The notes: generated from the letters alone by a model not told the origin. A stretch of 64,000 nt of DNA from an uncultured virus (IMG/VR IMGVR_UViG_3300021171_000137) (IMGVR_UViG_3300021171_000137); one strand, 5' to 3'. Positions 8,284-34,957 are shown, counted from the stretch's first letter. Translations and numbers: made by a program.

Positions 8284-8925
8284 ATGATATTAACGGTTGG
8301 CAATACGAAGGGCGGGGTCGGCAAGACCACGCTGGCGCTGCACATCGCGATCGCGCGGGCGCTGGCGGGCCGGGAAGTCTGGTTGATCGATGGCGATCGC
8401 CAGGGCACAGCGCAGACGGCGATTGGACTGCGGTCCGAAGCGGGCAGGGTGCCTGGCATTGCTTGCGCGTCCTATCCTGACGGCCCAGCGCTGCGCGGCC
8501 AGGTTCAGCAGCAGGCAGCTCGCTTCCAGGATGTGGTCATCGACGCAGGCGGCCGCGATTCGAGCGCTCTGCGGGCCGCCCTGGTGCTTTCCGATGTCAT
8601 TCTGGTGCCGTTCCAACCCCGCTCCTATGATGTCTGGGCTCTGGACGCGATCGAGGCTCTGATCACCGAGGCGCGGTCGGTGCGCGACGGACTGCGCGCG
8701 CTGGGCGTGCTGAGCCTAGCTGACCCGGGCGAGGGCGCCGACAACCGGGAAGCAGCTGCGGCGCTGAACGGTCGCCAGATTGAACTGCTGGACACGCCGA
8801 TCCGCAAGCGCAAGGCCTTTGCCAATGCGGCGGGCGCCGGCATTTCCGTGGTCGAACAAAAGCCCGTCGACGAAAAAGCGATCGCCGAAATGAATGCAAT
8901 GATTTCCGCATTATTTTCCGATTAA
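8284..8925 (+). CDS. parA: ParA/ParF-type plasmid partition ATPase
   Basis: Deviant Walker A KGGVGKTT, IDGDRQG, VVIDAGG; short type Ib length (213 aa). Confidence 0.92.
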   Translation: MILTVGNTKGGVGKTTLALHIAIARALAGREVWLIDGDRQGTAQTAIGLRSEAGRVPGIACASYPDGPALRGQVQQQAARFQDVVIDAGGRDSSALRAALVLSDVILVPFQPRSYDVWALDAIEALITEARSVRDGLRALGVLSLADPGEGADNREAAAALNGRQIELLDTPIRKRKAFANAAGAGISVVEQKPVDEKAIAEMNAMISALFSD

Positions 8926-16359: not shown

Positions 16360-16796
16360 ACCCGTCCGACGTTTCCACGCTGGCCAAGGCGCTGGAGGAA
16401 ATGGCCGACGCCCTGTGCGTCAAAGCCCCCGGCAAAGCAGGCCTGGGCGTGTGGCTGCGCGTCTTGCAGCACCAGCCGATCGGAAAGGTGATCGATGCGG
16501 TCGACGAGTGGGTCCGCACCAAACCCAAGATGCCGACGCCAGCCGATATCCTGGGCGTCCTGAGCAACCGCGTGTCGAGCAAGATCGAAGCGCATTCGGC
16601 CACTCGGCAGGCGATCGCCCATTTCGAGCGCCCTGCGCCTGGCTCGATCGCGCACGCCACCTACCTCGCCAGTTTTCGTCGCATCAGCGATTGCTTGCCG
16701 GATCTGCGCCGGCCATCCCTTGCGCTGGATTCAGAAGCAGCGCGGGAAGCGCAGGCCGAGCGCGCGGCGATCGCCGCGCAGGACGAGCCGCTGTGA
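16356..16796 (+). CDS. Putative helicase-loader/replication accessory protein
   Basis: Coupled to initiator; W...AVDEW...KMPTPADI pattern. Confidence 0.5.
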   Translation: MNPSDVSTLAKALEEMADALCVKAPGKAGLGVWLRVLQHQPIGKVIDAVDEWVRTKPKMPTPADILGVLSNRVSSKIEAHSATRQAIAHFERPAPGSIAHATYLASFRRISDCLPDLRRPSLALDSEAAREAQAERAAIAAQDEPL

Positions 16797-17473
16797 TTCA
16801 CTACCATGGCACACCGATCACGCCGCGGCACCAGCTGTACCGGATGGCTGGGCGCCACTTCTGCGTTTCCTTCGCGCGTCCGGATGACTTGGAGCCGTGT
16901 CTTTCAATCGGCCAGTCGGTGATGCTCGACAACGGCGCCTTTTCGGCCTTCACGCGGGGCGAGCCGTTCGACCTGGATGCCTACGTGAAATGGGTTGAAC
17001 CGGTTCTGGCGCATCCGCACTGGGCCGTGATCCCGGACGTGATCGACGGCAGCGTGGCCGATCAGGACAGGATGATCGCGCAGTGGCCACGGTCGTACCG
17101 CGACCTGAGCATGCCGGTGTGGCACCTGGGGCTGCCGATTCAATACCTGCTCGAGCTTGCGCAGCGGTTCCCGCGGATCTGTTTCGGCTCGAGCGCCGCT
17201 TATTGGGACGTCGGATCGGACGCCTGGTGCGGTCGCATGGACGAGGCTTTCAACGCGCTCGCGCAGCGCCATCACGGTTTGCCTTGGGTGCACGGCCTGC
17301 GAATGCTGGGGATGGCTGGCTTGCGCTGGCCCCTCGCCTCTGCGGATTCGAGTAACGTCGCGCAAAACCACACCCGGACCGGATGCGCCGAATGCATGGC
17401 CGCGGTGCTGGATAGCACCCAATGCCGGACTGGCTGGAAGCAGATCGAAACGCAGCAAAGGATGTTTGCATGA
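16793..17473 (+). CDS. TGT/DpdA-like TIM-barrel protein (putative base-exchange enzyme)
   Basis: HYHGTP, MLDNGAFS, IPDVI, PVWH, VHGLR, ADSS motifs; GTG start overlaps previous stop. Confidence 0.55.
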   Translation: MIHYHGTPITPRHQLYRMAGRHFCVSFARPDDLEPCLSIGQSVMLDNGAFSAFTRGEPFDLDAYVKWVEPVLAHPHWAVIPDVIDGSVADQDRMIAQWPRSYRDLSMPVWHLGLPIQYLLELAQRFPRICFGSSAAYWDVGSDAWCGRMDEAFNALAQRHHGLPWVHGLRMLGMAGLRWPLASADSSNVAQNHTRTGCAECMAAVLDSTQCRTGWKQIETQQRMFA

Positions 17474-17478
17474 TTACC

Positions 17479-17548
17479 GGTCGCGTCAAGGCGAGGGCAG
17501 GGCTTTCAATCCCGGCGCCCCGCGGGTTCGACTCCCGCCGCGACCTCA
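17479..17548 (+). ncRNA. tRNA-like element lacking a D stem (loop CTTTCAAT, Glu-like)
   Basis: Perfect acceptor GGTCGCG/CGCGACC and perfect T arm GCGGG-TTCGACT-CCCGC. Confidence 0.65.
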
Positions 17549-18017
17549 CCGGCTGAACCACCCGTGCTGATGATGACTCCGTTTCGGTACCACAGTTTCC
17601 CCGCGAGGGTGACTCGGTGTGGCCACGACGGGCGAGTCTGGAAGGTTCTTCGCGCATGAGGCGGGCAAGTGCGCGGCCCCGTCGGGGGATGCTGCCGTGA
17701 AAGCCAACGGCAGGAACAGGCCGACGCCGATCAGGCTTGACACCCGGAGAGACGGGGAAATATCCTGACGCGATGAAGGTCAGACTGCACAGCACCAAGA
17801 TGATGGTCGAGCTGATGGTGAACGGCGTGCCGGTGCCCGCGCGCATCTGGGAAGGCCACACCGAATCGGGCACGCCCGTGCACGCGTTCATCACGCGCAT
17901 CTGCCCCACAATCGAGCAGCCGCTTCCGGCGAGGATCGAAGCGGAGTTCGCGCGCGAGCTGCAAGAGCAGGCGCCGCCCACGCCGATGGTGGCGACGATT
18001 CCGCTGAGGATGATCCT

Positions 18018-18536
18018 GTGAGCGAACTGACCTGGATTGATCCGGACTGCGATCGCAGTGAGTGGCCCGCCGGTCCGTGGGACGGCGAACCCGACAAAGT
18101 GCAATGGGTCGACGATGCCACCGGTCTCGTTTGCCTGGCCAAGCGACAGCCGCTACTGGGCCATTGGTGCGGATACGTCGGCATCGATTCGGGTCATCCT
18201 TGGCACGGCAAGGATTACGAAATCGCCGACGTTTGTGGAGTGCACGGTGGCCTGACCTTCGCCGATGCGTGCCAGGAAGGACCGATTGCGTCGACCGTTT
18301 GCCATCTGCCAGAGCCCGGGCAATCTGACGGCCTGTGGTGGTTCGGCTTTGATTGCTCCCACCACCGTGACTTCAGCCCGAGCACGGCAATGCTTATGAA
18401 GCTCGTGCCATCTGCGGGATCGGCACTCGGAACGATGTACCCAGCAGGCGCAGCGCAGTACCGGGATCTTGCCTACGTGCGCGGGGAGTGCGCCAAGCTG
18501 GCAATGCAGATAAACGCCGTAAAATCAACAAGTTAA
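18018..18536 (+). CDS. Conserved phage hypothetical protein
   Basis: GHWCGYV, VHGGLTF, WWFGFDCSH motifs. Confidence 0.75.
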   Translation: MSELTWIDPDCDRSEWPAGPWDGEPDKVQWVDDATGLVCLAKRQPLLGHWCGYVGIDSGHPWHGKDYEIADVCGVHGGLTFADACQEGPIASTVCHLPEPGQSDGLWWFGFDCSHHRDFSPSTAMLMKLVPSAGSALGTMYPAGAAQYRDLAYVRGECAKLAMQINAVKSTS

Positions 18537-18558
18537 CATAATGTACTTTATGCGAAGT
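18531..18558 (-). other. dif: XerC/XerD dif-like recombination site
   Basis: Minus strand ACTTCGCATAA-AGTACA-TTATGTTAACT; 11-6-11 match to the proteobacterial dif pattern. Confidence 0.85.
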
Positions 18559-18808
18559 GGTTTTTCTGCCAGCAAATGACAGTCTGTCAAGGCTTCGCTT
18601 GGGCGCTGGCGACTGCCACGGTCGCCAACCTGACCATCGATAGCCAGCATCGGCTGGTTTCGCGCGCGCTCACAGGCGCTGTCCTTTTCCTGTCCATAGC
18701 GGTGATAGCGACAATGAACCCGACCTGAATGCTGGCGCTGCCGTGGTCCGCCGGCAGATAGTGCAACGACCGTTTGCCTATCTGACATTTACCGGAAAGG
18801 ACCCGAAA

Positions 18809-19168
18809 ATGTACGCTGCTGACCGCAAAACCATCCACGACCGGCGCGAAATGCTCCGGGTCAAAGTCAAGTCCCTGGCGGCCGAAGCCAGAATCATCCG
18901 GCACGAAGAGGCGCGCACGCGCGGGGCGATTCAGGCTGAGCTGCACCGGCACCGAACGGTCGACGTGCGGCTGGAGGCGCGCCTTTCGGTGCTCGCCTAT
19001 GGCCTGATCCGCGGGCGAGCGCTTGACCGCATGGAACCGAAGACTAGGCCCGAAAACGCCCTCTCAGCGGCCCAATGGGACCGTGTGCGCGCGATGGGAA
19101 AGAAGTTCGGCCCGGTGAGCGGCGTCGAGTTACCAGGCGAAGCCAAGGCGCTTTTGATGGCCGCGTAA
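18809..19168 (+). CDS. Conserved phage hypothetical protein
   Basis: LRVKVKSLAAEARIIRHEE...LAYGLIRGR; AAAGGA RBS. Confidence 0.7.
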   Translation: MYAADRKTIHDRREMLRVKVKSLAAEARIIRHEEARTRGAIQAELHRHRTVDVRLEARLSVLAYGLIRGRALDRMEPKTRPENALSAAQWDRVRAMGKKFGPVSGVELPGEAKALLMAA

Positions 19169-19228
19169 TGCTCTGACCACGGACGGAATCGATCTGAACC
19201 GGATCAAGCACGGAACTATTTCAGCCAT

Positions 19229-19258
19229 TTGACGCCGGTGGCGGTACTGGCGCATGAT
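19229..19258 (+). promoter_or_regulatory. Putative late promoter
   Basis: TTGACG-18bp-CATGAT upstream of the structural operon. Confidence 0.5.
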
Positions 19259-19305
19259 TCCGGCACTTGGGGAACCCGCGCGCCAGCGGCCCCGCCAATC
19301 ACTGT

Positions 19306-24849: not shown

Positions 24850-27843
24850 ATGAACTGGCTCGCGAAGGTTGCCGCGCTGGCGCGTGGCTGGCACCTCTCT
24901 CCCCCCTCGAAAGGCCCTGCGCCAGCCTCGTCCGCACTGGAAACGGTCGCCAGCGCGGCACCCCTCGGCACGCCGAACCGGCGTGCCCCGATGAGGATCA
25001 GCGACGAGGCCTTGGCCGCGGCTGGGCCGACTTCCGCCGGCACGAAATGGGAAACGGCTGACCCTCACCCGGGTGTGATTCCGAGCAAGCTAAAGCTCGC
25101 GATGGACTCGGACATGTCATCCACGTTCGACTGGATGACGAACAGCCGCTTTAGCGAGGGGATGACCTTCTTCGGTTACCCGTACTTGGCCGAACTGACC
25201 CAGCGGGCCGAATACCGCCGTCCGTCGGAAATCATCGCCAAGGCGATGACGATGAAATGGATCAAGTTCACCGCCACGGGAGAACAAAACAAAGACGACA
25301 AGATCGACGTGATCGAGGCCGAATTCAAGCGGCTCAAGGTGCAGGACCGGCTTTGCACGATGTCCGAGCATGACGGGTTTTTCGGCCGTGGGCAGCTGTT
25401 CCTAGACATGTTCGGGGTCGACGTGGAGGTCGACCGCACTGAACTGGCGATGCCGTTGCTCGATGTGAGGTCCAAGATCGGCAGAGGTATTCAGCAACTC
25501 GTTCCGGTCGAAGCGATGTGGACGTATCCGAATCGCTACAACAGCCAAAATCCGCTCAAACCGGACTTCTTCAAGGCGACCAGCTGGTATGTGATGGGCA
25601 CGGAAGTGCACGCCAGCCGAATGCTGACGTTGGTAAGCCGGCCGGTGCCGGACATGCTCAAACCGGTGTACGGGTTCGGGGGCCTGTCGCTCACGCAGAT
25701 CATGAAGCCGTACGTGGACAACTGGCTGCGCACGCGGCAGTCGGTGTCGGACCTGATCCACAATTTTTCCGTGATGGCGCTCAAGACGGACCTGACCGAC
25801 ATCATGAATGCGGGCGCCGGCACGCAGATGTTCAATCGAGCAGACCTTTTCAATCGGGCGCGCGATAACCGCAGCTTGTTCATGCTCAATAAGGACACTG
25901 AAGAACTCGACAACATCAGTGTTCCGCTGGGTACTCTGGATGCATTGCAGGCGCAGTCACAGGAACACCAGGCTGCGGTGACCGGCATCCCGCTCATCAT
26001 CATGTTCGGCATCACGCCCAAGGGCCTGAATGCGACGGCTGAGCCGGAACTGAAGACGTTCGGGCGCAATGTCCTGAGCTGGCAGCAATCGCTGTATACG
26101 CCGCCGATCACGCGAATTCTGAACATCGTTCAGCTTGCGAAGTTCGGTGAAATCGATCCTGAAATCGGTTTCAAGTACGAACCGTTGACGGACGACGATA
26201 TGAAGATCCTGGCCGAAACCCGCAAGGTGGAGGCCGACACCGACGAAGTGATGATCAATTCCGGCGTCATTTCGCCGGCTGAGGCGCGCAACCGGGTGGC
26301 CCAGCAGGAAGACTCGCCCTATTCCGGGCTGGACGTGAGCATGGTGCCCGAACCGCCTGGCGAGGAAGGGATGGGCCTGCCTGGCCTGGGTCCGGAGGGC
26401 GAGCCTGGACCCGAACAGCCGCCGAATCCGAACGCGGGCGCGGTGCCGCCCCCCAATGGAGCACGGCCGCCGGGCGCGCGCCCTAATGGCGCCGTGCCGG
26501 CCCACGATGAAAAGTGGATCACCGTACACGGCGGCAAAGAAGGCGGTGGCCAGCCGGTGCTGATCACCGAAGGCGGGGTGGTCAAGGGTGGCGCGGGCGG
26601 CAGCATGAACGGGATGGTGCTGCGCAAAGCCGGCAAGGAAGGCGCGGGCGAGGCGCCCAAGCCTGAGCATTCGGCCAAGCTCGAGGGGTTGCTGAAGTCT
26701 TTGCAGAACCGCAACCGCTCGAGCGCGGCGAGCATCAACCAGATGTCCAAGATCGCGGCCAACCCGAACCCGCGCCTACTGATGGCAGCGCCCACGATGG
26801 CCGACGGCGCGCCCGTGGTGGCCGATCTTCACGGTCGCGGGATTGCCGTGGCCACCGGCCACCGGGACATCATCGTGACGCCAAAGCGCGAACTGGGCGT
26901 TCGTTACGCGGTGGTCGAAGCCGATCAGATATCCACGTCCAACAGCGCTGACGGCGTGAAGAACGCCGACTACGCCAAAGACCCTGACAAGATGGTCGCG
27001 ATCAATAACGGCCGCACGGCCGGCGTCATCGAGGCCTACAAGAAAGGCACCGCGGATGCCTACAAGGCGGCGATCGCCGCGGGCGCCAAGGTGCACGGGA
27101 TCCCGGGCAAGACGATCCGCGCGATGAAATCGCCGGTACTGGTCCGGGTCATGGATGCAGACGACGTGTCCGAGGGCATAGCAGACGAGTCGAACACGAC
27201 GCAGACCTTGACGCTGTCGGCGGTGGAGCAGGCCCGAAACGACGCGGATCGGTTCGATGCGTCCCAGATCGATTACGACGATGATGGGCAGCCGTCCGAG
27301 GCCTCAGTGCGCGGTTTCATACAGACGATGCCGGCCTCGGAACAGCAGTCGCTTGCGCCGAACGGGCGCCCTACCCGCCAGGCGATAGACCGGATGCACG
27401 CGGCGACCTTCCACGCTGCTTACGGCGATTCGGAACTGGTCGGGCTGATGGCTCAGGCGACCGACCCGGAATCCAGAACCCTGATCGCCGGCATGAGCCG
27501 CGCGGCCGGCTCGATGGCCAAGCTGAAAGACGCGGGCGAACTGGACATCCGCGAACTGGTCACCGGTGCTGCCAAGCAAATCATCAACGCGGTGCGCTCC
27601 GGCGTGTCAGTGAAGAAGTTCCTGAAACAGGGCGATCTACTCACGAACAGCGCCGAAGGCGCCATCGCCAGCATGATGGCGGAGAACATTCGCAGCGGTA
27701 AGGCGATCGGCGAACGCTTGGGATCGGCGGCCGATTTCGCTTTCCAGGAATCTCAACGAGGCGGCATCGACATTTTCGGGGAGCAGATCCCGACCGCGAG
27801 CCGCGAAGACGTACTGAAGGGGATTGGTCATGCTGAGCCCTGA
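24850..27843 (+). CDS. DUF1073-type portal protein fused to a C-terminal DdrB/ParB-like payload
   Basis: Portal motifs FFGYPYLAELTQRAEYR and FGITPKGLNAT; Pro/Gly linker; then LQNRNR...GAPVV...YAVVEAD...NGRT...MKSPVLVRV. Confidence 0.85.
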   Translation: MNWLAKVAALARGWHLSPPSKGPAPASSALETVASAAPLGTPNRRAPMRISDEALAAAGPTSAGTKWETADPHPGVIPSKLKLAMDSDMSSTFDWMTNSRFSEGMTFFGYPYLAELTQRAEYRRPSEIIAKAMTMKWIKFTATGEQNKDDKIDVIEAEFKRLKVQDRLCTMSEHDGFFGRGQLFLDMFGVDVEVDRTELAMPLLDVRSKIGRGIQQLVPVEAMWTYPNRYNSQNPLKPDFFKATSWYVMGTEVHASRMLTLVSRPVPDMLKPVYGFGGLSLTQIMKPYVDNWLRTRQSVSDLIHNFSVMALKTDLTDIMNAGAGTQMFNRADLFNRARDNRSLFMLNKDTEELDNISVPLGTLDALQAQSQEHQAAVTGIPLIIMFGITPKGLNATAEPELKTFGRNVLSWQQSLYTPPITRILNIVQLAKFGEIDPEIGFKYEPLTDDDMKILAETRKVEADTDEVMINSGVISPAEARNRVAQQEDSPYSGLDVSMVPEPPGEEGMGLPGLGPEGEPGPEQPPNPNAGAVPPPNGARPPGARPNGAVPAHDEKWITVHGGKEGGGQPVLITEGGVVKGGAGGSMNGMVLRKAGKEGAGEAPKPEHSAKLEGLLKSLQNRNRSSAASINQMSKIAANPNPRLLMAAPTMADGAPVVADLHGRGIAVATGHRDIIVTPKRELGVRYAVVEADQISTSNSADGVKNADYAKDPDKMVAINNGRTAGVIEAYKKGTADAYKAAIAAGAKVHGIPGKTIRAMKSPVLVRVMDADDVSEGIADESNTTQTLTLSAVEQARNDADRFDASQIDYDDDGQPSEASVRGFIQTMPASEQQSLAPNGRPTRQAIDRMHAATFHAAYGDSELVGLMAQATDPESRTLIAGMSRAAGSMAKLKDAGELDIRELVTGAAKQIINAVRSGVSVKKFLKQGDLLTNSAEGAIASMMAENIRSGKAIGERLGSAADFAFQESQRGGIDIFGEQIPTASREDVLKGIGHAEP

Positions 27844-31639: not shown

Positions 31640-34600
31640 ATGCCATTCGATCCGGGCTACGCCGGCACTGCCGTTACCGAAGGCGCCGGCATTGCGTTCA
31701 TCACCCCGGACGGCCTGTGCCTGTTCCTGAAGCGCTCGAGCCGCGGCGATCACGCGGGCGAATGGTGCCTGCCAGGTGGCACCGCGAAGGATGATGAAAC
31801 ACCGCTCGAGACGGCTCGGCGCGAGGCGATCGAGGAAATTGGTGACATCCCGGAAGGAAAGCTGCGCGAGCTGGCGCATCTGACACTGGATGGCGTCGAA
31901 TTCGTCACCTTCGTGCAGCGCGTCAAAGATGACCTCTTCGCTCCGGAATTGAACTACGAACACACGGATCACATTTGGGCGCAGATCGACGATCCGCCCG
32001 AACCGCTGCACCCTGGCGTAGAACGCATCCTGCCGATGCTTGCCGCGGCGCGCATGGGAATGGACGCTGAGTGGGACGAGTCCAAGCACCCGCGCGACGA
32101 GGGTGGACGGTTCGGTGAGGGCGGTGGCGCTGCGCCATTCAACCGGGAAGCCAATCGGGCTAAACAAAAGGATCTACTGCGGCAATCCAATGCGCTGCGG
32201 GCGAGCAACCCACAGGAAAGTCGCCGTCTGTATGAACAGGCCAACGCGCTCCAGGAAGAAGACCTAGCCAACGAAAAGAAGGAAAAAACGGCCGCGAAAC
32301 GTGCCGCAACCGTGCAGGCGAAAAAGAGCGCTGCACAAGCTGAGCACATCGACGAGCACGGCTTCACGCGCGCCGCGGGCCTGAGCCCTGAGCACCGCGC
32401 GATCGAGCAGGGCTTCTACGACGCGATCCGCCACAACCCGAAGGCGCTGATCGGTACCTATCGCAAGCGCTTCGGCAACGTGATCGATCCGGACAAGGTG
32501 AAACTCCTGTCCCGATCGTTCGTCGGCGATCGCAAGCTCGCGCCGGTGGTTCATGAGCCCTCTTCGCTGCTGTCGAAGATGATCTTCACGGCGGCACTGA
32601 AGGACAAGGCCGCGCGCGGCGATAAGAGCCCGACCTTGTTCACGGCCGGCGGCAGCGGGTCGGGCAAGTCCGAAGCGATGGACGTCGCGATCCAGGCGCT
32701 AGGGCTGCCTGACGATGGCTTGACCTTCGATTCGACGCTGTCGAACACGAAGTCCGCGATCAAGAAAATCGACGAGGCGCTGAACACGGCCCCGGGCCCG
32801 GTCAGCATCGTTTACACGAACTCGCCCATCGAGAAGGCTTTCGCGTTCAACGCGATCCGCAAGCGGGCCGTACAAGGCGCAACGCTCGAGCACGCGCATC
32901 TGGGCGCCTCGAAAACGGTGCGCGAACTGGCGCAGCACTATGCGGGCAATCCCAGAGTCAAGATCAATATCCTGAACAATCAGGGCCACCTGGGCGATAT
33001 CCACGTCGGATCGATCGATGATGTTCCGAGGTATGATCCAGAGGTCATCAAGTCGTCTCTGAAACTCGTTGCCAAAAAGCTGCTCGACGATGGCCGAATC
33101 AAGCAAGACCGATACGAATATCTCACTGGATCCGGCCAAGGTGGCGGAAGCCGTGAAGAAGTTCGCGGCCAAACATCAGGGCAAGACCTTGGTGGATCTG
33201 GCGAACGAAGCGGACGACCAGGCGGACCAGGAAGCGCAAGCCTTCCTGAAGGATCATCCGGACGAGACAGTTCCGTAGACGATAGCGGGCGCCCTGCCCG
33301 CTTGGCTGGCGATGAGCTGGCCGAAGATCCCGAACTGGCATTCGATCGCGCCACCGGCGAACGGCTGGCGTTCGATCGCGCGAGCGTGCGCAGCTACGAC
33401 CAGGACGGCCGGCTGCACATCGAGGTCGCCAACATCAGCAAGGCGACCGTCAACCCGTACTACGGTTTCGAGATTCCGGACGCCGAAGAACTCGGGCTCG
33501 AACCACGCAAGGTCTATTACCTGCTGCGCGATCCGCAGGAATTGGCCAAGGCGGTTCCGACCTTCAACAACATTCCGCTCCTGTCCGATCACCGGCCCAC
33601 CACCGCTGATGACCTGGACAAGGAACTGGTGATCGGGTCGACCGGAACGGATGCAGCCTTCAATGCGCCGTACCTCACCAATTCGCTCGTGTTCTGGGAC
33701 GGGGACGCGTGCGACCAGATCGAAACGAATCAGACGCGTGAACTGTCGGCTTCGTACCGGTACGTGGCCGATATGACGCCGGGCGTATTCGAGGGGCGCC
33801 GTTACGACGGCGTGATGCGTGAAATCCGAGGCAACCATGTCGCACTGGTGCGGGACGGTCGCGCGGGATCCGACGTAATCGTGGGAGATAGCCAACCAAA
33901 GGAGTCAGGTCAGATGGGAACCACCCAGCAAGTGCTGTCACGGAAGGCCATGCTGGCGAAGGGAGCCTTGCTCGCGGTCCTTCCGCCACTGCTGGCAAAA
34001 GACGCGCGCCCCGCGTTCGCAAAGGATCTGAACAAGATCCTGATCGGGTGCGCCTCGGATAACTGGAAGACGAAAAAGCCCGAAATCATCGCCGCCGTTC
34101 GCAAGCTGAAACTGCCGGCGACTGTCCTGGCCAAGGATGCGAGCGTTGCATCCCTGACGCAATTGCTTGACGGGCTCGAGGGCGAAGCCGGGGGCGAGCC
34201 GCCAGCTGGCGAGCCGGCGCCCGGCGGCGCCGAACCGCTGGATTCCGATTATGGTGCAGCCGGTGATGCCCCGCCGGCCGAAGGCGAACCGCCAGCCGCG
34301 CCGGCCGCCGCAGCACCGGCGGCACCGGGCGCCAAGCCGGGGGAAGCCGATCCGGTGAACGAAATCCTGGAGGCTTTAAAGCCCCACCTGAAGCCTGAGC
34401 ATCACGCTTGGCTGGGCGAAAAGCTCAAGGCGCTGCGCCCCGCCGGCCCGCATGCCGAAATTGCGCCAGCGGGCTCGCCCACTCCGGCAGAAACGAAGCC
34501 GGCCCAGGATGAACCGCCTGGCGGCGAAGGTCAGCCCAAACCCCCAGCAACCTCACCCGGCAAGGACCCCCTCAAGGACAAGGACGCAGCCATGACCCAA

Positions 34601-34957
34601 GCAGTCAGCAAGGCCGCCATGGACGCGGCGATCGCCGAGGCGACCAAGAACACGCGCAAGGAAACCATGGCGCAGATGCGCGCCCTGGCCGACGCCGAGG
34701 CCTTCGTGCAGCCGTGGGTCGGCAAGCTCACCCTCGCCTGCGATACGGCTGAGGGCGTCTTCAAGGCGGCGCTCGAAGCCTTGGAAATCGACTTAACCGA
34801 CGTGCACCCGACCGCCTACAAGCACATTCTGGCCGCGCAGCCCAAGCGCCGGCCCGACGGTGAGCCGCCCCCGCGCATGGCGGCGGACTCCGCGGCGACG
34901 GTCGACAGCGTGATTGCCAGTCTGTCGCCAGCCGCGGCAGGCCTGCGCGTCGTGTAA
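31640..34957 (+). CDS. Polyprotein: NUDIX hydrolase + zeta-toxin-like P-loop kinase + DUF2213 prohead protease/scaffold
   Basis: Complete Nudix box [22 protein letters not shown]; Walker [19 protein letters not shown]...[11 protein letters not shown]...ELSASY...[13 protein letters not shown]. Confidence 0.88.
33090..33278 (+). CDS. Overprinted small acidic protein (candidate antitoxin)
   Basis: +1 frame inside the polyprotein linker; this frame has GC-rich third positions while the host frame is G/S/R low-complexity with many A/T-ending codons. Confidence 0.6.

What the first reader, a model, noticed from the sequence alone, without database searches (positions are those of the whole stretch)
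17479..17548. D-arm-less tRNA-like RNA right behind a TGT-like gene
Seen: GGTCGCG-TCAAGGCGA-GGGC-A-GGG-CTTTCAAT-CCC-GGC-GCCC-C-GCGGG-TTCGACT-CCCGC-CGCGACC-TCA. The acceptor and T stems are perfect, but a 9-nt unpaired loop replaces the D arm. The anticodon arm is extended and bulged with an 8-nt loop (or a 7-nt Glu TTC loop in a weaker pairing). It begins 5 nt after the stop of the TGT-like gene. Perfect outer stems argue against simple decay. Inference: a tRNA mimic, such as a decoy for anticodon nucleases, an RNase P processing signal, or a substrate of the adjacent enzyme.
Basis: partly seen in the sequence, partly recalled or inferred. Interest (0 to 1): 0.7.

Follow-up and report, generated by a model that had tools for sequence, protein, structure and literature searches.

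The report
Armless stop-codon tRNA in phages
The odd tRNA-like sequence is real: it belongs to a conserved group of phage tRNA genes that lack the D arm, carry an anticodon matching a stop codon, and nearly always travel with one small uncharacterised protein, while the neighbouring TGT-like gene is unrelated.

Summary
Window 17479-17546 folds as a 7-bp acceptor stem, a canonical T arm, a 9-nt connector in place of the D arm, and a two-part anticodon arm with an 8-nt loop.

ARAGORN and Rfam at its gathering score miss it (RF00005 24.1 bits, cut-off 29). It is still neither chance nor decay. At least 17 other phage contigs carry the same armless design, with compensatory changes in every helix.

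The reading changes in two ways:
- **TGT/DpdA-like gene:** its adjacency is incidental. It appears in none of 80 relatives' loci except near-identical copies of this phage.
- **Anticodon:** it is best read as UCA (opal, UGA), not Glu UUC.

Loci chosen only because they encode a small helical protein ("X", window 18809-19168) carry a same-strand tRNA or tRNA-like gene with a stop anticodon (UCA, CUA or UUA) in 40 of 45 cases. About half of these genes are armless. The reverse test gave X in 12 of 15 records against 3 of 30 controls.

X has no Pfam, PHROG, PDB or fold match, yet has 3443 cluster representatives. Cultured carriers include Stenotrophomonas phage DLP5, where the partner is annotated tRNA-Sup-CTA.

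The function is inferred, not shown: a tRNA-like adaptor acting at stop codons together with X.

The parts
17479..17546 (+). D-arm-less tRNA-like gene: acceptor stem through discriminator U. CCA is not encoded; the next bases are C-A-C.
   Evidence: Sequence. RF00005 24.1 bits over the full model. Highest score to the family model R1, 92 bits, although it is one of the four training sequences. Gap-free alignment with three other phages and covariation.
17479..17485 (+). Acceptor stem, 5' strand; pairs with 17539-17545.
   Evidence: 7 of 7 Watson-Crick pairs here. 124 of 126 cells paired in 18 armless members, and every pair has several pair types.
17486..17494 (+). 9-nt connector replacing the D arm; contains a GG doublet.
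   Evidence: A connector of 5-14 nt is present in all 18 armless members, and 17 of 18 contain GG. That the GG acts as a G18-G19 equivalent touching the T loop is inference.
17495..17520 (+). Two-part anticodon arm. Outer helix 17495-17498 with 17517-17520. Bulge 17499. Inner helix 17500-17502 with 17511-17513. 8-nt loop 17503-17510. 3-nt bulge 17514-17516.
   Evidence: All 4 outer pairs covary in alignment A1. In 18 members the mean outer helix is 3.44 bp against 2.38 +/- 0.34 in shuffles, with 1 of 1000 shuffles as high. The inner helix is paired in 52 of 54 cells.
17506..17508 (+). Proposed anticodon UCA, complementary to UGA.
   Evidence: It lies 13 nt before the T stem. This matches full-size relatives, where the stop anticodon sits 25-27 nt after the acceptor strand and 11-13 nt before the T stem.
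17522..17538 (+). T arm: 5-bp stem and a 7-nt T loop of canonical sequence.
   Evidence: 88 of 90 cells paired in 18 members.
17549..18808 (+). DNA lying between the RNA gene and gene X in this phage only: a non-coding stretch, a promoter-like site at 17737-17766, and ORFs 17737-18021 and 18018-18536 (phrog_2164, function unknown).
   Evidence: In most relatives the RNA ends 40-130 nt before X, or begins 7-9 nt after it. Promoter-like site. ORFs.
18809..19168 (+). Gene X: a 119-aa helical protein of unknown function (the ORF could start at GTG 18743). It is the conserved genetic partner of the RNA.
   Evidence: Homologues lie next to the RNA in L218, L223, L225 and L220. 45 X-anchored loci were examined. 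The AF2 model has pLDDT 88.7. No Pfam or PHROG hit.
16415..17473 (+). DpdA/TGT-like gene. Context only; not part of the module.
   Evidence: phrog_887, E 3.8e-49. The RNA is absent beside its relatives.

Best explanation
Window 17479-17546 is an intact gene for a D-arm-less tRNA with a stop-codon anticodon (UCA, opal). It belongs to a mobile two-gene phage module whose other part is the small helical protein X (18809-19168).

**Shown**
- The armless architecture is conserved with covariation.
- The module's RNAs carry UCA, CUA or UUA at the canonical anticodon position.
- RNA and X are linked in both search directions, on one strand, and usually within about 130 nt.

**Inferred**
- The RNA is cut out of the transcript like a tRNA by RNase P and a 3' nuclease, and receives CCA.
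- It keeps an L-shape through the GG of the connector and the canonical T loop.
- It enters the ribosomal A site at UGA, competing with release factor 2. The result is either read-through or blocked termination.
- X acts as its specific protein partner, for example in binding, delivery or protection.

The TGT-like neighbour plays no part.
For: **1. Family and covariation.**
- Four gap-free 71-nt homologues give 98.7% paired cells. 11 of 19 pairs show changes on both sides, and 0 of 500 shuffles reach this.
- Eighteen armless members give acceptor 124/126, T stem 88/90 and inner stem 52/54 paired cells.

**2. A distinct class.** Among 108 unique phage tRNA-like sequences with this loop motif, the distance from acceptor to loop is bimodal: 15-20 nt in 11 and 22-32 nt in 97.

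**3. Protein-anchored test.**
- Of 45 viral loci chosen only for encoding X, 40 have a same-strand tRNA or tRNA-like gene with UCA, CUA or UUA.
- Over 41 distinct sequences plus the window, the types are 25 UCA, 12 CUA and 1 UUA. Seventeen are armless.

**4. Reverse test.** X is present in 12 of 15 records holding odd (8-nt-loop or uncalled) tRNA-like genes. It is present in 3 of 30 records holding an ARAGORN-called tRNA-Glu with the same loop motif. In 2 of those 3, X sits next to the tRNA.

**5. Anticodon position.** In full-size members the stop anticodon lies 25-27 nt after the acceptor strand and 11-13 nt before the T stem, which are the canonical distances. In armless members only the 5' distance shrinks, to 18-22 nt.

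**6. Encoded CCA.** It is present in 27 of 36 parsed members, 14 of 17 among the armless ones. This fits a molecule that uses its 3' end.

**7. Cultured carriers.**
- In Stenotrophomonas phage DLP5, the X homologue gp070 is followed 7 nt later by an annotated tRNA-Sup-CTA.
- In Agrobacterium phage OLIVR1, the X-like gp025 lies 103 nt after a tRNA whose 8-nt loop contains CUA.

**8. No third gene.** Only X is shared among the flanks of 42 loci.
Against: - No expression, processing, charging or read-through data exist for any armless member. RNA-library contigs laid on the window did not cover the element; that is no evidence either way.
- The window's phage ends 46 of 69 predicted genes with TGA, the share expected from base composition (65%). 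It shows no excess of coding-looking in-frame TGA junctions. An efficient opal suppressor would therefore extend most of its proteins. Any decoding must be weak, timed or of another kind.
- Here the RNA and X are 1.2 kb apart, and CCA is not encoded.
- Anticodon type and armless state are scattered over the X tree (8 changes; shuffles average about 10.4). X is therefore not tuned to one anticodon, and a physical RNA-X contact is not shown.
- Bacterial translation with an armless tRNA has no precedent that I know of (recalled, not tested).
Confidence: 0.55

Rival explanations
1. The RNA works off the ribosome as the ligand of X. The two would form an RNA-protein pair, such as an anti-defence or antidote complex, and the tRNA shape and stop-type loop would serve recognition by X or by a host factor rather than decoding.
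For: - RNA and X are tightly linked on one strand in 40 of 45 loci.
- X is a basic helical hairpin with invariant Lys, Arg and His residues.
- The module moves among unrelated phages with no other shared gene.
- The window's phage does not avoid TGA stops.
- Loss of the D arm is tolerated in many lineages.
Against: - The one feature common to all the RNAs is an anticodon complementary to a stop codon, placed at the canonical distance. That points to codon reading.
- CCA is encoded in 27 of 36 members.
- The full-size members look like ordinary tRNAs and are annotated as tRNA-Sup.
Confidence: 0.22
2. In this particular phage the element is a stranded, non-functional remnant of the module.
For: - It lies 1.2 kb from X, with two ORFs and a promoter-like site in between.
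- CCA is not encoded.
- TGA stops are not avoided.
- The three records that hold it are 100% identical here, so they give no test of selection within this lineage.
Against: - All 19 pairs of the family structure are intact.
- The loop and T loop match the family consensus.
- X is intact and 97% identical to a database protein seen on 12 contigs.
- Other members also lie 300-900 nt from X.
Confidence: 0.08
3. Decoy or replacement for host tRNA-Glu(UUC) against an anticodon nuclease. This was one of the first reader's ideas.
For: - The loop contains the tRNA-Glu loop sequence plus one extra base.
- Rfam and ARAGORN in its mitochondrial mode read several members as Glu(ttc).
- Phage tRNAs with altered loops that escape anticodon nucleases are in print (PMC10264068; search listing and abstract only).
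Against: - Relatives joined to the same protein carry CUA or UUA (12 and 1 of 38). These mimic no Glu tRNA.
- Covariation favours the 8-nt register.
- The canonical position falls on UCA.
Confidence: 0.05
4. Substrate or processing signal tied to the adjacent TGT/DpdA-like gene, or a phage attachment site derived from a host tRNA.
For: The element begins 5 nt after the DpdA-like stop codon. Many phages integrate into tRNA genes (textbook knowledge).
Against: - The element is absent next to DpdA relatives. By ARAGORN, 0 of 28 viral loci have a tRNA. The closest non-identical relatives (71-73% identity) have another ORF directly after the stop.
- The loop has no G34.
- Both acceptor strands covary, which a DNA crossover site would not need.
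- No integrase lies beside it. This phage has a ParA-like gene, and DLP5 is reported to persist as a phagemid (PMC5834331, abstract in the search listing).
Confidence: 0.03

Closest known systems
Phage-encoded suppressor tRNAs (tRNA-Sup), e.g. tRNA-Sup-CTA of Stenotrophomonas phages DLP5 and DLP3, and the suppressors of stop-codon-recoded phages
   Same: The anticodon is complementary to a stop codon at the canonical position. The gene is phage-borne. DLP5's Sup-CTA sits 7 nt after a homologue of protein X, so it belongs to the same module. PMC7326821 lists Sup-CTA among the DLP3 and DLP5 tRNAs (passages read).
   Different: The window's RNA has no D arm, a 3-bp inner anticodon stem and an 8-nt loop. 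Its phage shows no sign of recoding. The papers I read do not mention protein X or any link to it.
D-arm-lacking mitochondrial tRNAs (e.g. animal mt-tRNA-Ser(AGY)); recalled from textbook knowledge
   Same: The D arm is replaced by a short connector. The anticodon helix is lengthened by pairing of what would be the 3' D-stem strand with the variable region. Total length is about 65-70 nt.
   Different: The setting is a phage, not an organelle. The canonical T loop and a GG in the connector are kept. There is an 8-nt loop with a stop anticodon and a dedicated protein neighbour. No common descent is implied.
tRNAs with 8-nt anticodon loops (frameshift suppressors such as SufB2 and SufJ; yeast mitochondrial tRNA-Thr)
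   Same: One extra loop nucleotide. ARAGORN labels several members with four-letter anticodons, '(ttca)' or '(tcta)'.
   Different: The extra base here lies 5' of a canonically placed triplet, because the stem pair next to the loop is lost. Members with 7-nt loops occur in the same module. Four-base decoding is not shown. Papers seen only as search listings.
tRNA-like domain of tmRNA with SmpB
   Same: A tRNA-shaped RNA with a reduced D region that works with a dedicated small protein at the ribosomal A site. This is an analogy only.
   Different: There is no Rfam tmRNA match beyond a 17-nt T-arm fragment at 10.5 bits. An anticodon arm is present, there is no mRNA-like part, and X is all-helical with no match to any solved structure.

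Membership tests
tRNA (Rfam RF00005; ARAGORN bacterial model) | Score at or above the curated threshold, or a call by a standard detector | tested here: not met
   24.1 bits against a gathering score of 29. 0 hits at the gathering score. ARAGORN finds 0 genes in the window. ARAGORN in mitochondrial mode also finds nothing for the window copy.
tRNA (Rfam RF00005; ARAGORN bacterial model) | 7-bp acceptor stem and a 5-bp T stem with a canonical T loop | tested here: met
tRNA (Rfam RF00005; ARAGORN bacterial model) | D arm (3-4 bp stem plus loop) | tested here: not met
   Only 9 unpaired nt lie between the acceptor and the anticodon arm.
tRNA (Rfam RF00005; ARAGORN bacterial model) | 5-bp anticodon stem with a 7-nt loop | tested here: not met
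   Covariation favours 3 bp plus an 8-nt loop: 52/54 against 47/54 paired cells.
Phage suppressor tRNA (tRNA-Sup) | Anticodon complementary to a stop codon at the canonical position | tested here: met
   UCA lies 13 nt before the T stem. Full-size relatives have 25-27 nt before the anticodon and 11-13 nt after it.
Phage suppressor tRNA (tRNA-Sup) | Homology or shared context with annotated suppressor tRNAs | tested here: met
   It shares the X neighbour with DLP5's tRNA-Sup-CTA and with ARAGORN-called tRNA(cta), tRNA(tca) and tRNA(tta) genes.
Phage suppressor tRNA (tRNA-Sup) | Aminoacylation and read-through of the stop codon | not testable with these tools
   Needs charging and reporter assays.
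Phage suppressor tRNA (tRNA-Sup) | Genome with in-frame stop codons that need suppression (recoded phages) | tested here: not met
   Large genes are intact under table 11. TGA ends 46 of 69 genes, as base composition predicts. Only 2 coding-looking in-frame TGA junctions were found.
D-arm-lacking mitochondrial-type tRNA | D arm replaced by a connector loop and an extended anticodon helix | tested here: met
   ARAGORN in mitochondrial mode calls relatives L220, L198 and L199 'D-loop mtRNA'.
D-arm-lacking mitochondrial-type tRNA | Organelle origin and descent | tested here: not met
   The window is a tailed-phage genome: terminase, portal, major capsid protein, sheath, baseplate and endolysin.
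Substrate of TGT/DpdA-type transglycosylase | Guanine at the wobble position in a U-G-U context (recalled textbook rule) and conserved linkage to the enzyme gene | tested here: not met
   The loop has no G. Linkage is absent in the relatives.
tmRNA tRNA-like domain | Match to tmRNA models; no anticodon arm | tested here: not met
   Only a 17-nt fragment at 10.5 bits against a gathering score of 47. ARAGORN finds no tmRNA.

The most novel reading that the evidence does not exclude
The armless stop-anticodon RNA and protein X form a phage-borne ribonucleoprotein that takes over stop-codon recognition on host ribosomes. It would be an RNA-guided competitor of, or substitute for, the release factors. 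It would work at whichever stop codon its anticodon names and would not need the tRNA body required for normal elongation. Phages would use it to reprogramme or block termination during takeover or in conflicts with host defences.
Probability: 0.15. Interest if true: 0.92.

Novelty: new variant of a known kind. Interest (0 to 1): 0.8.

Why it matters
D-arm-less tRNAs are known from mitochondria. My full-text searches (one search was badly framed and uninformative) found no report of them in phages or bacteria. They also found no report of a protein tied to phage suppressor tRNAs.

Standard tRNA finders miss these genes, so they are absent from phage annotations.

The partner protein family is large: 3443 representatives of 50%-identity clusters. 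It has no Pfam or PHROG model; 36 of 36 sampled members had no family above threshold.

Suppressor tRNAs in phages that are not recoded have lacked an explanation. A conserved two-gene module gives a concrete, testable handle on what they do.

An armless tRNA that works on bacterial ribosomes would also interest people working on genetic-code expansion.

Tried and rejected
**Searches for copies of the element**
- An exact 24-nt 3' half searched in viral contigs gave 0 hits.
- BLASTN of 16400-18600 against cultured phages matched only a short stretch inside the DpdA gene. BLASTN against plasmids gave nothing.
- The DpdA protein searched in genome contigs gave only 2 distant loci and no host clue.
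- The downstream gene 18018-18536 searched in viral contigs gave only 31-36% relatives.
- A pattern that left the anticodon arm free (connector motif plus T loop) gave 52 stretches. All were ordinary tRNAs except the L223 sequence, found twice, and one unclear 3-kb contig, L263.

**Protein X**
- PDB sequence profile: 0 hits.
- Foldseek against PDB: best E 2.9.
- BFVD: only uncharacterised phage proteins.
- ESM Atlas: no usable hit.
- Longer fused forms: none found, which is weak evidence.

**Stop-codon and genome tests**
- X's own stop codon does not match the neighbouring anticodon. A lower share of TGA stops in X genes beside UCA-type RNAs is confounded by G+C content, so I do not use it.

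**Expression**
- Runs X12, X14 and X17 (RNA libraries, kept as contigs) and X4 were laid on 17300-19300. RNA-library contigs cover 17300-17434, 17564-17851 and parts of 18336-18996. None covers 17479-17548. Contigs cannot show absence, and short structured RNAs are usually lost, so this says nothing.

**Loci without the RNA**
- L314, L315 and L316 have no tRNA-like hit, even with filters off.
- L318 is unclear.
- L286 ends 62 nt after X.

**Other**
- Earlier findings of this scan held nothing for this genome or for X.
- Complex prediction was not used, because no specific protein-protein contact is claimed.

Full report
**1. The observation**

It has these parts:
- a perfect 7-bp acceptor stem;
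- a perfect 5-bp T stem with a canonical 7-nt T loop;
- nine unpaired bases where a D arm should be;
- an anticodon arm made of a 4-bp outer helix, a 1-nt and a 3-nt bulge, a 3-bp inner helix and an 8-nt loop.

The element starts 5 nt after the stop of ORF 16415-17473. That ORF matches phrog_887 'queuine tRNA-ribosyltransferase' (E 3.8e-49) and no Pfam family.

Standard tools do not call the element:
- ARAGORN finds no tRNA in the 64 kb.
- Rfam at gathering scores finds nothing.
- With relaxed thresholds the Rfam tRNA model matches end to end at 24.1 bits against a cut-off of 29. It places 9 nt where 15 are expected in the D region. E is 2.5e-4 per virus record.
- The folding energy is ordinary (z -0.9).

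On its own this could be a rare chance match or a decayed tRNA. Conservation had to decide.

**2. Context**

The window is a tailed-phage genome. It encodes terminase subunits, portal, head protease, major capsid protein, tail sheath, baseplate and endolysin, plus a ParA-like gene and DNA methyltransferases. Its own assembly is not held. A virus record (G001) and a metagenome contig (L046) are 100% identical across the element, so they carry no information on selection.

**3. The TGT-like neighbour is incidental**

- I fetched 28 viral and 52 metagenome loci that encode relatives of the DpdA-like protein.
- ARAGORN finds no tRNA in the 28 viral loci.
- Rfam at E <= 1 finds no tRNA in the 18 of them that I submitted.
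- In the 13 loci that I read, the stop codon is followed directly by another ORF.
- A BLASTN of 17400-17800 against all loci then held matched only the identical copies. The 73%-identical relative L047 has other DNA after its stop.
- The loop has no guanine. From textbook knowledge, TGT-type enzymes exchange a wobble G.

**4. A family of armless tRNA-like genes**

Most are ordinary tRNA-Glu genes. ARAGORN Glu, 7 with a four-letter anticodon, 1 'SeC' and 10 nothing among the 120.
- In 108 unique sequences with an acceptor stem of 6 or more pairs, the distance from the acceptor strand to the loop is bimodal: 15-20 nt in 11 (the window included) and 22-32 nt in 97.
- A tighter pattern returned 8 loci. 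Three distinct sequences (L218, L223 with its copy L224, and L225) align to the window without a gap over 71 nt.
- On that alignment 98.7% of cells pair, and 11 of 19 pairs change on both sides. All four pairs of the unusual outer helix are among them. No shuffle of 500 and no slid register comes near.
- Caveat: these four were found with a pattern that fixed the loop, two flanking pairs and the T loop. Invariance there is by construction. The covariation elsewhere is not.

**5. The real partner**

An all-against-all comparison of ORFs around these loci showed one shared protein, here called X: window 18743/18809-19168, L218, L223, L225 and L220, at 33-56% identity.

I then turned the search round and fetched 45 viral loci chosen only because they encode X. 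A covariance model built from the four RNAs, ARAGORN and inspection gave this tally:

| Loci (of 45) | Result |
|---|---|
| 40 | A tRNA or tRNA-like gene on the same strand as X |
| 1 (L286) | The contig ends 62 nt after X |
| 1 (L318) | Unclear |
| 3 (L314-L316) | None found, even with filters off |

- The RNA usually ends 40-130 nt before X or starts 7-9 nt after it.
- The flanks share no other gene.

The reverse test agrees:
- X is present in 12 of 15 records that hold 8-nt-loop or uncalled tRNA-like genes.
- X is present in 3 of 30 records that hold an ARAGORN-called tRNA-Glu with the same loop motif. In 2 of those 3 it lies next to the tRNA.

**6. What the RNAs have in common**

In the X-anchored set, which is not biased by any RNA pattern, the anticodon loops hold UCA, CUA or UUA. 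Over the 41 distinct X-anchored sequences plus the window, the types are 25 UCA, 12 CUA and 1 UUA.

| Members | Acceptor strand to triplet | Triplet to T stem |
|---|---|---|
| 19 full-size | 25-27 nt (canonical) | 11-13 nt (canonical) |
| 17 armless | 18-22 nt | 11-14 nt |

- Only the D region is missing in the armless members.
- The 8-nt loops arise because the stem pair next to the loop is lost, not because the anticodon is displaced.
- The window's anticodon is therefore best read as UCA (17506-17508), complementary to UGA, and not as Glu UUC.

Counts in 18 armless members:
- acceptor stem, 124 of 126 cells paired;
- T stem, 88 of 90;
- inner stem, 52 of 54 in the 8-nt register against 47 of 54 in the 7-nt register;
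- outer helix, mean 3.44 bp against 2.38 +/- 0.34 after shuffling (1 of 1000 as high);
- 17 of 18 connectors hold a GG.

CCA is encoded in 27 of 36 parsed members, but not in the window copy.

**7. Protein X**

- X is about 105-180 aa. The AF2 model (pLDDT 88.7) is a long helical hairpin followed by short helices.
- It has invariant Lys, Arg, His and Tyr positions.
- Nothing informative came from Pfam, PHROGs, PDB sequences, Foldseek against PDB, BFVD, the ESM Atlas or a search for longer fused forms.
- The family is large: 67 close homologues and 3443 representatives of 50%-identity clusters at E <= 0.001.
- Cultured carriers are Stenotrophomonas phages DLP5, DLP3 and Summit, and Agrobacterium phages OLIVR1-3.
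- In DLP5 the X homologue gp070 is followed 7 nt later by an annotated tRNA-Sup-CTA.
- In OLIVR1 a gene annotated 'tRNA-Val' with an 8-nt loop that contains CUA lies 103 nt before the X-like gp025.
- The DLP3 paper lists Sup-CTA but says nothing on its role or on X (PMC7326821, passages read). The OLIVR paper gave no information on gp025 in the passages I searched (PMC10132094).
- On a tree of 42 X proteins, anticodon type needs 8 changes, against about 10.4 in shuffles. Armless and full-size partners are interspersed. For example, the window and L278 (armless, UCA) group with L287 (full-size, CUA) at 96/84 support. X is therefore not tied to one stop codon. Either the D arm was lost several times or the RNA genes were swapped.

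**8. How it may work**

The structure, the family and the linkage are shown. The mechanism is inferred.

The only property shared by all the partner RNAs is an anticodon for a stop codon at the canonical place, together with an intact acceptor/T half and usually an encoded CCA. The simplest reading has three steps:
- The RNA is matured like a tRNA.
- It reaches the ribosomal A site at UGA.
- There it competes with release factor 2, giving read-through or interfering with termination, with X as its dedicated partner.

Against an efficient suppressor: this phage ends 46 of 69 predicted genes in TGA, as base composition predicts. It has no excess of coding-looking in-frame TGA junctions. It is not recoded, and it would suffer from strong read-through.

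This keeps open an off-ribosome role as the ligand of X, and the bolder idea that the pair is an RNA-guided termination factor or anti-factor.

A decoy for a tRNA-Glu nuclease is unlikely, because CUA and UUA members share the module. An attachment-site origin does not explain covariation of both acceptor strands. Decay is contradicted by the conserved architecture.

**9. In this window**

The module is split. About 1.26 kb lies between the RNA and X. It holds a non-coding stretch, a promoter-like site at 17737-17766, and two ORFs. The RNA thus sits at the end of the DpdA transcription unit.

RNA-library contigs from soil metatranscriptomes cover neighbouring stretches and part of X, but not the element. 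That is uninformative.

**10. Known or new**

Phage suppressor tRNAs are known, and so are mitochondrial armless tRNAs. I found no paper on armless tRNAs in phages or bacteria, or on a protein coupled to phage suppressor tRNAs (searches; one search was poorly framed). The library lacks many subscription papers, so this is not proof of absence.

Earlier findings of this scan concern suppressor tRNAs of recoded phages that carry an extra anticodon-like arm. They are a different solution in a different setting.

**Verdict.** It is a real armless tRNA-like gene, but its anticodon matches a stop codon and its partner is protein X, not the TGT-like gene.

Noticed in passing
window 17564-17767: The non-coding stretch just after the element is covered by contigs from two soil RNA libraries at the highest depths on the laid region (15.6 and 52.7). 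In run X14, an identical 137-nt piece (17631-17767) continues into unrelated sequence on both sides. It may be a small transcribed or mobile element. Rfam gives only a chance-level hit (IMPDH RNA, 13.6 bits).
   Followed up: partly
window 8284-8925: A ParA-like partition gene (phrog_164, E 1e-40), and no integrase among the 47 window ORFs that I scanned against PHROGs. The phage may persist as a plasmid prophage, as is reported for DLP5, another carrier of the module (PMC5834331, abstract in the search listing).
   Followed up: no
window 16415-17473: The DpdA/TGT-like ORF matches phrog_887 only over residues 125-318, and Pfam gives no hit. The first ~125 residues are unexplained, or the true start lies further downstream. 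I saw no 7-deazaguanine synthesis genes among the ORFs that I scanned.
   Followed up: no
window 24850-27843 and 31640-34957: Two very long head-module ORFs. One is a 997-aa portal protein with a large C-terminal extension. The other is a 1105-aa protein that joins a NUDIX-like or portal-like N-terminus to a head maturation protease.
   Followed up: no
L297 1826-1903: A 78-nt sequence near gene X has an acceptor-like stem that encloses two T-arm-like hairpins in tandem. A separate UCA-type tRNA lies at 1956-2028.
   Followed up: partly
L324 2069-2142 (Agrobacterium phage OLIVR1, NC_055840): The gene annotated 'tRNA-Val' has an 8-nt anticodon loop that contains CUA and sits beside an X-like gene. 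The amino-acid label in the record is probably wrong.
   Followed up: partly
L263 860-909: A 3-kb viral contig carries another candidate armless tRNA-like sequence with the same connector motif but a different, non-standard anticodon-arm region. I could not classify it.
   Followed up: no
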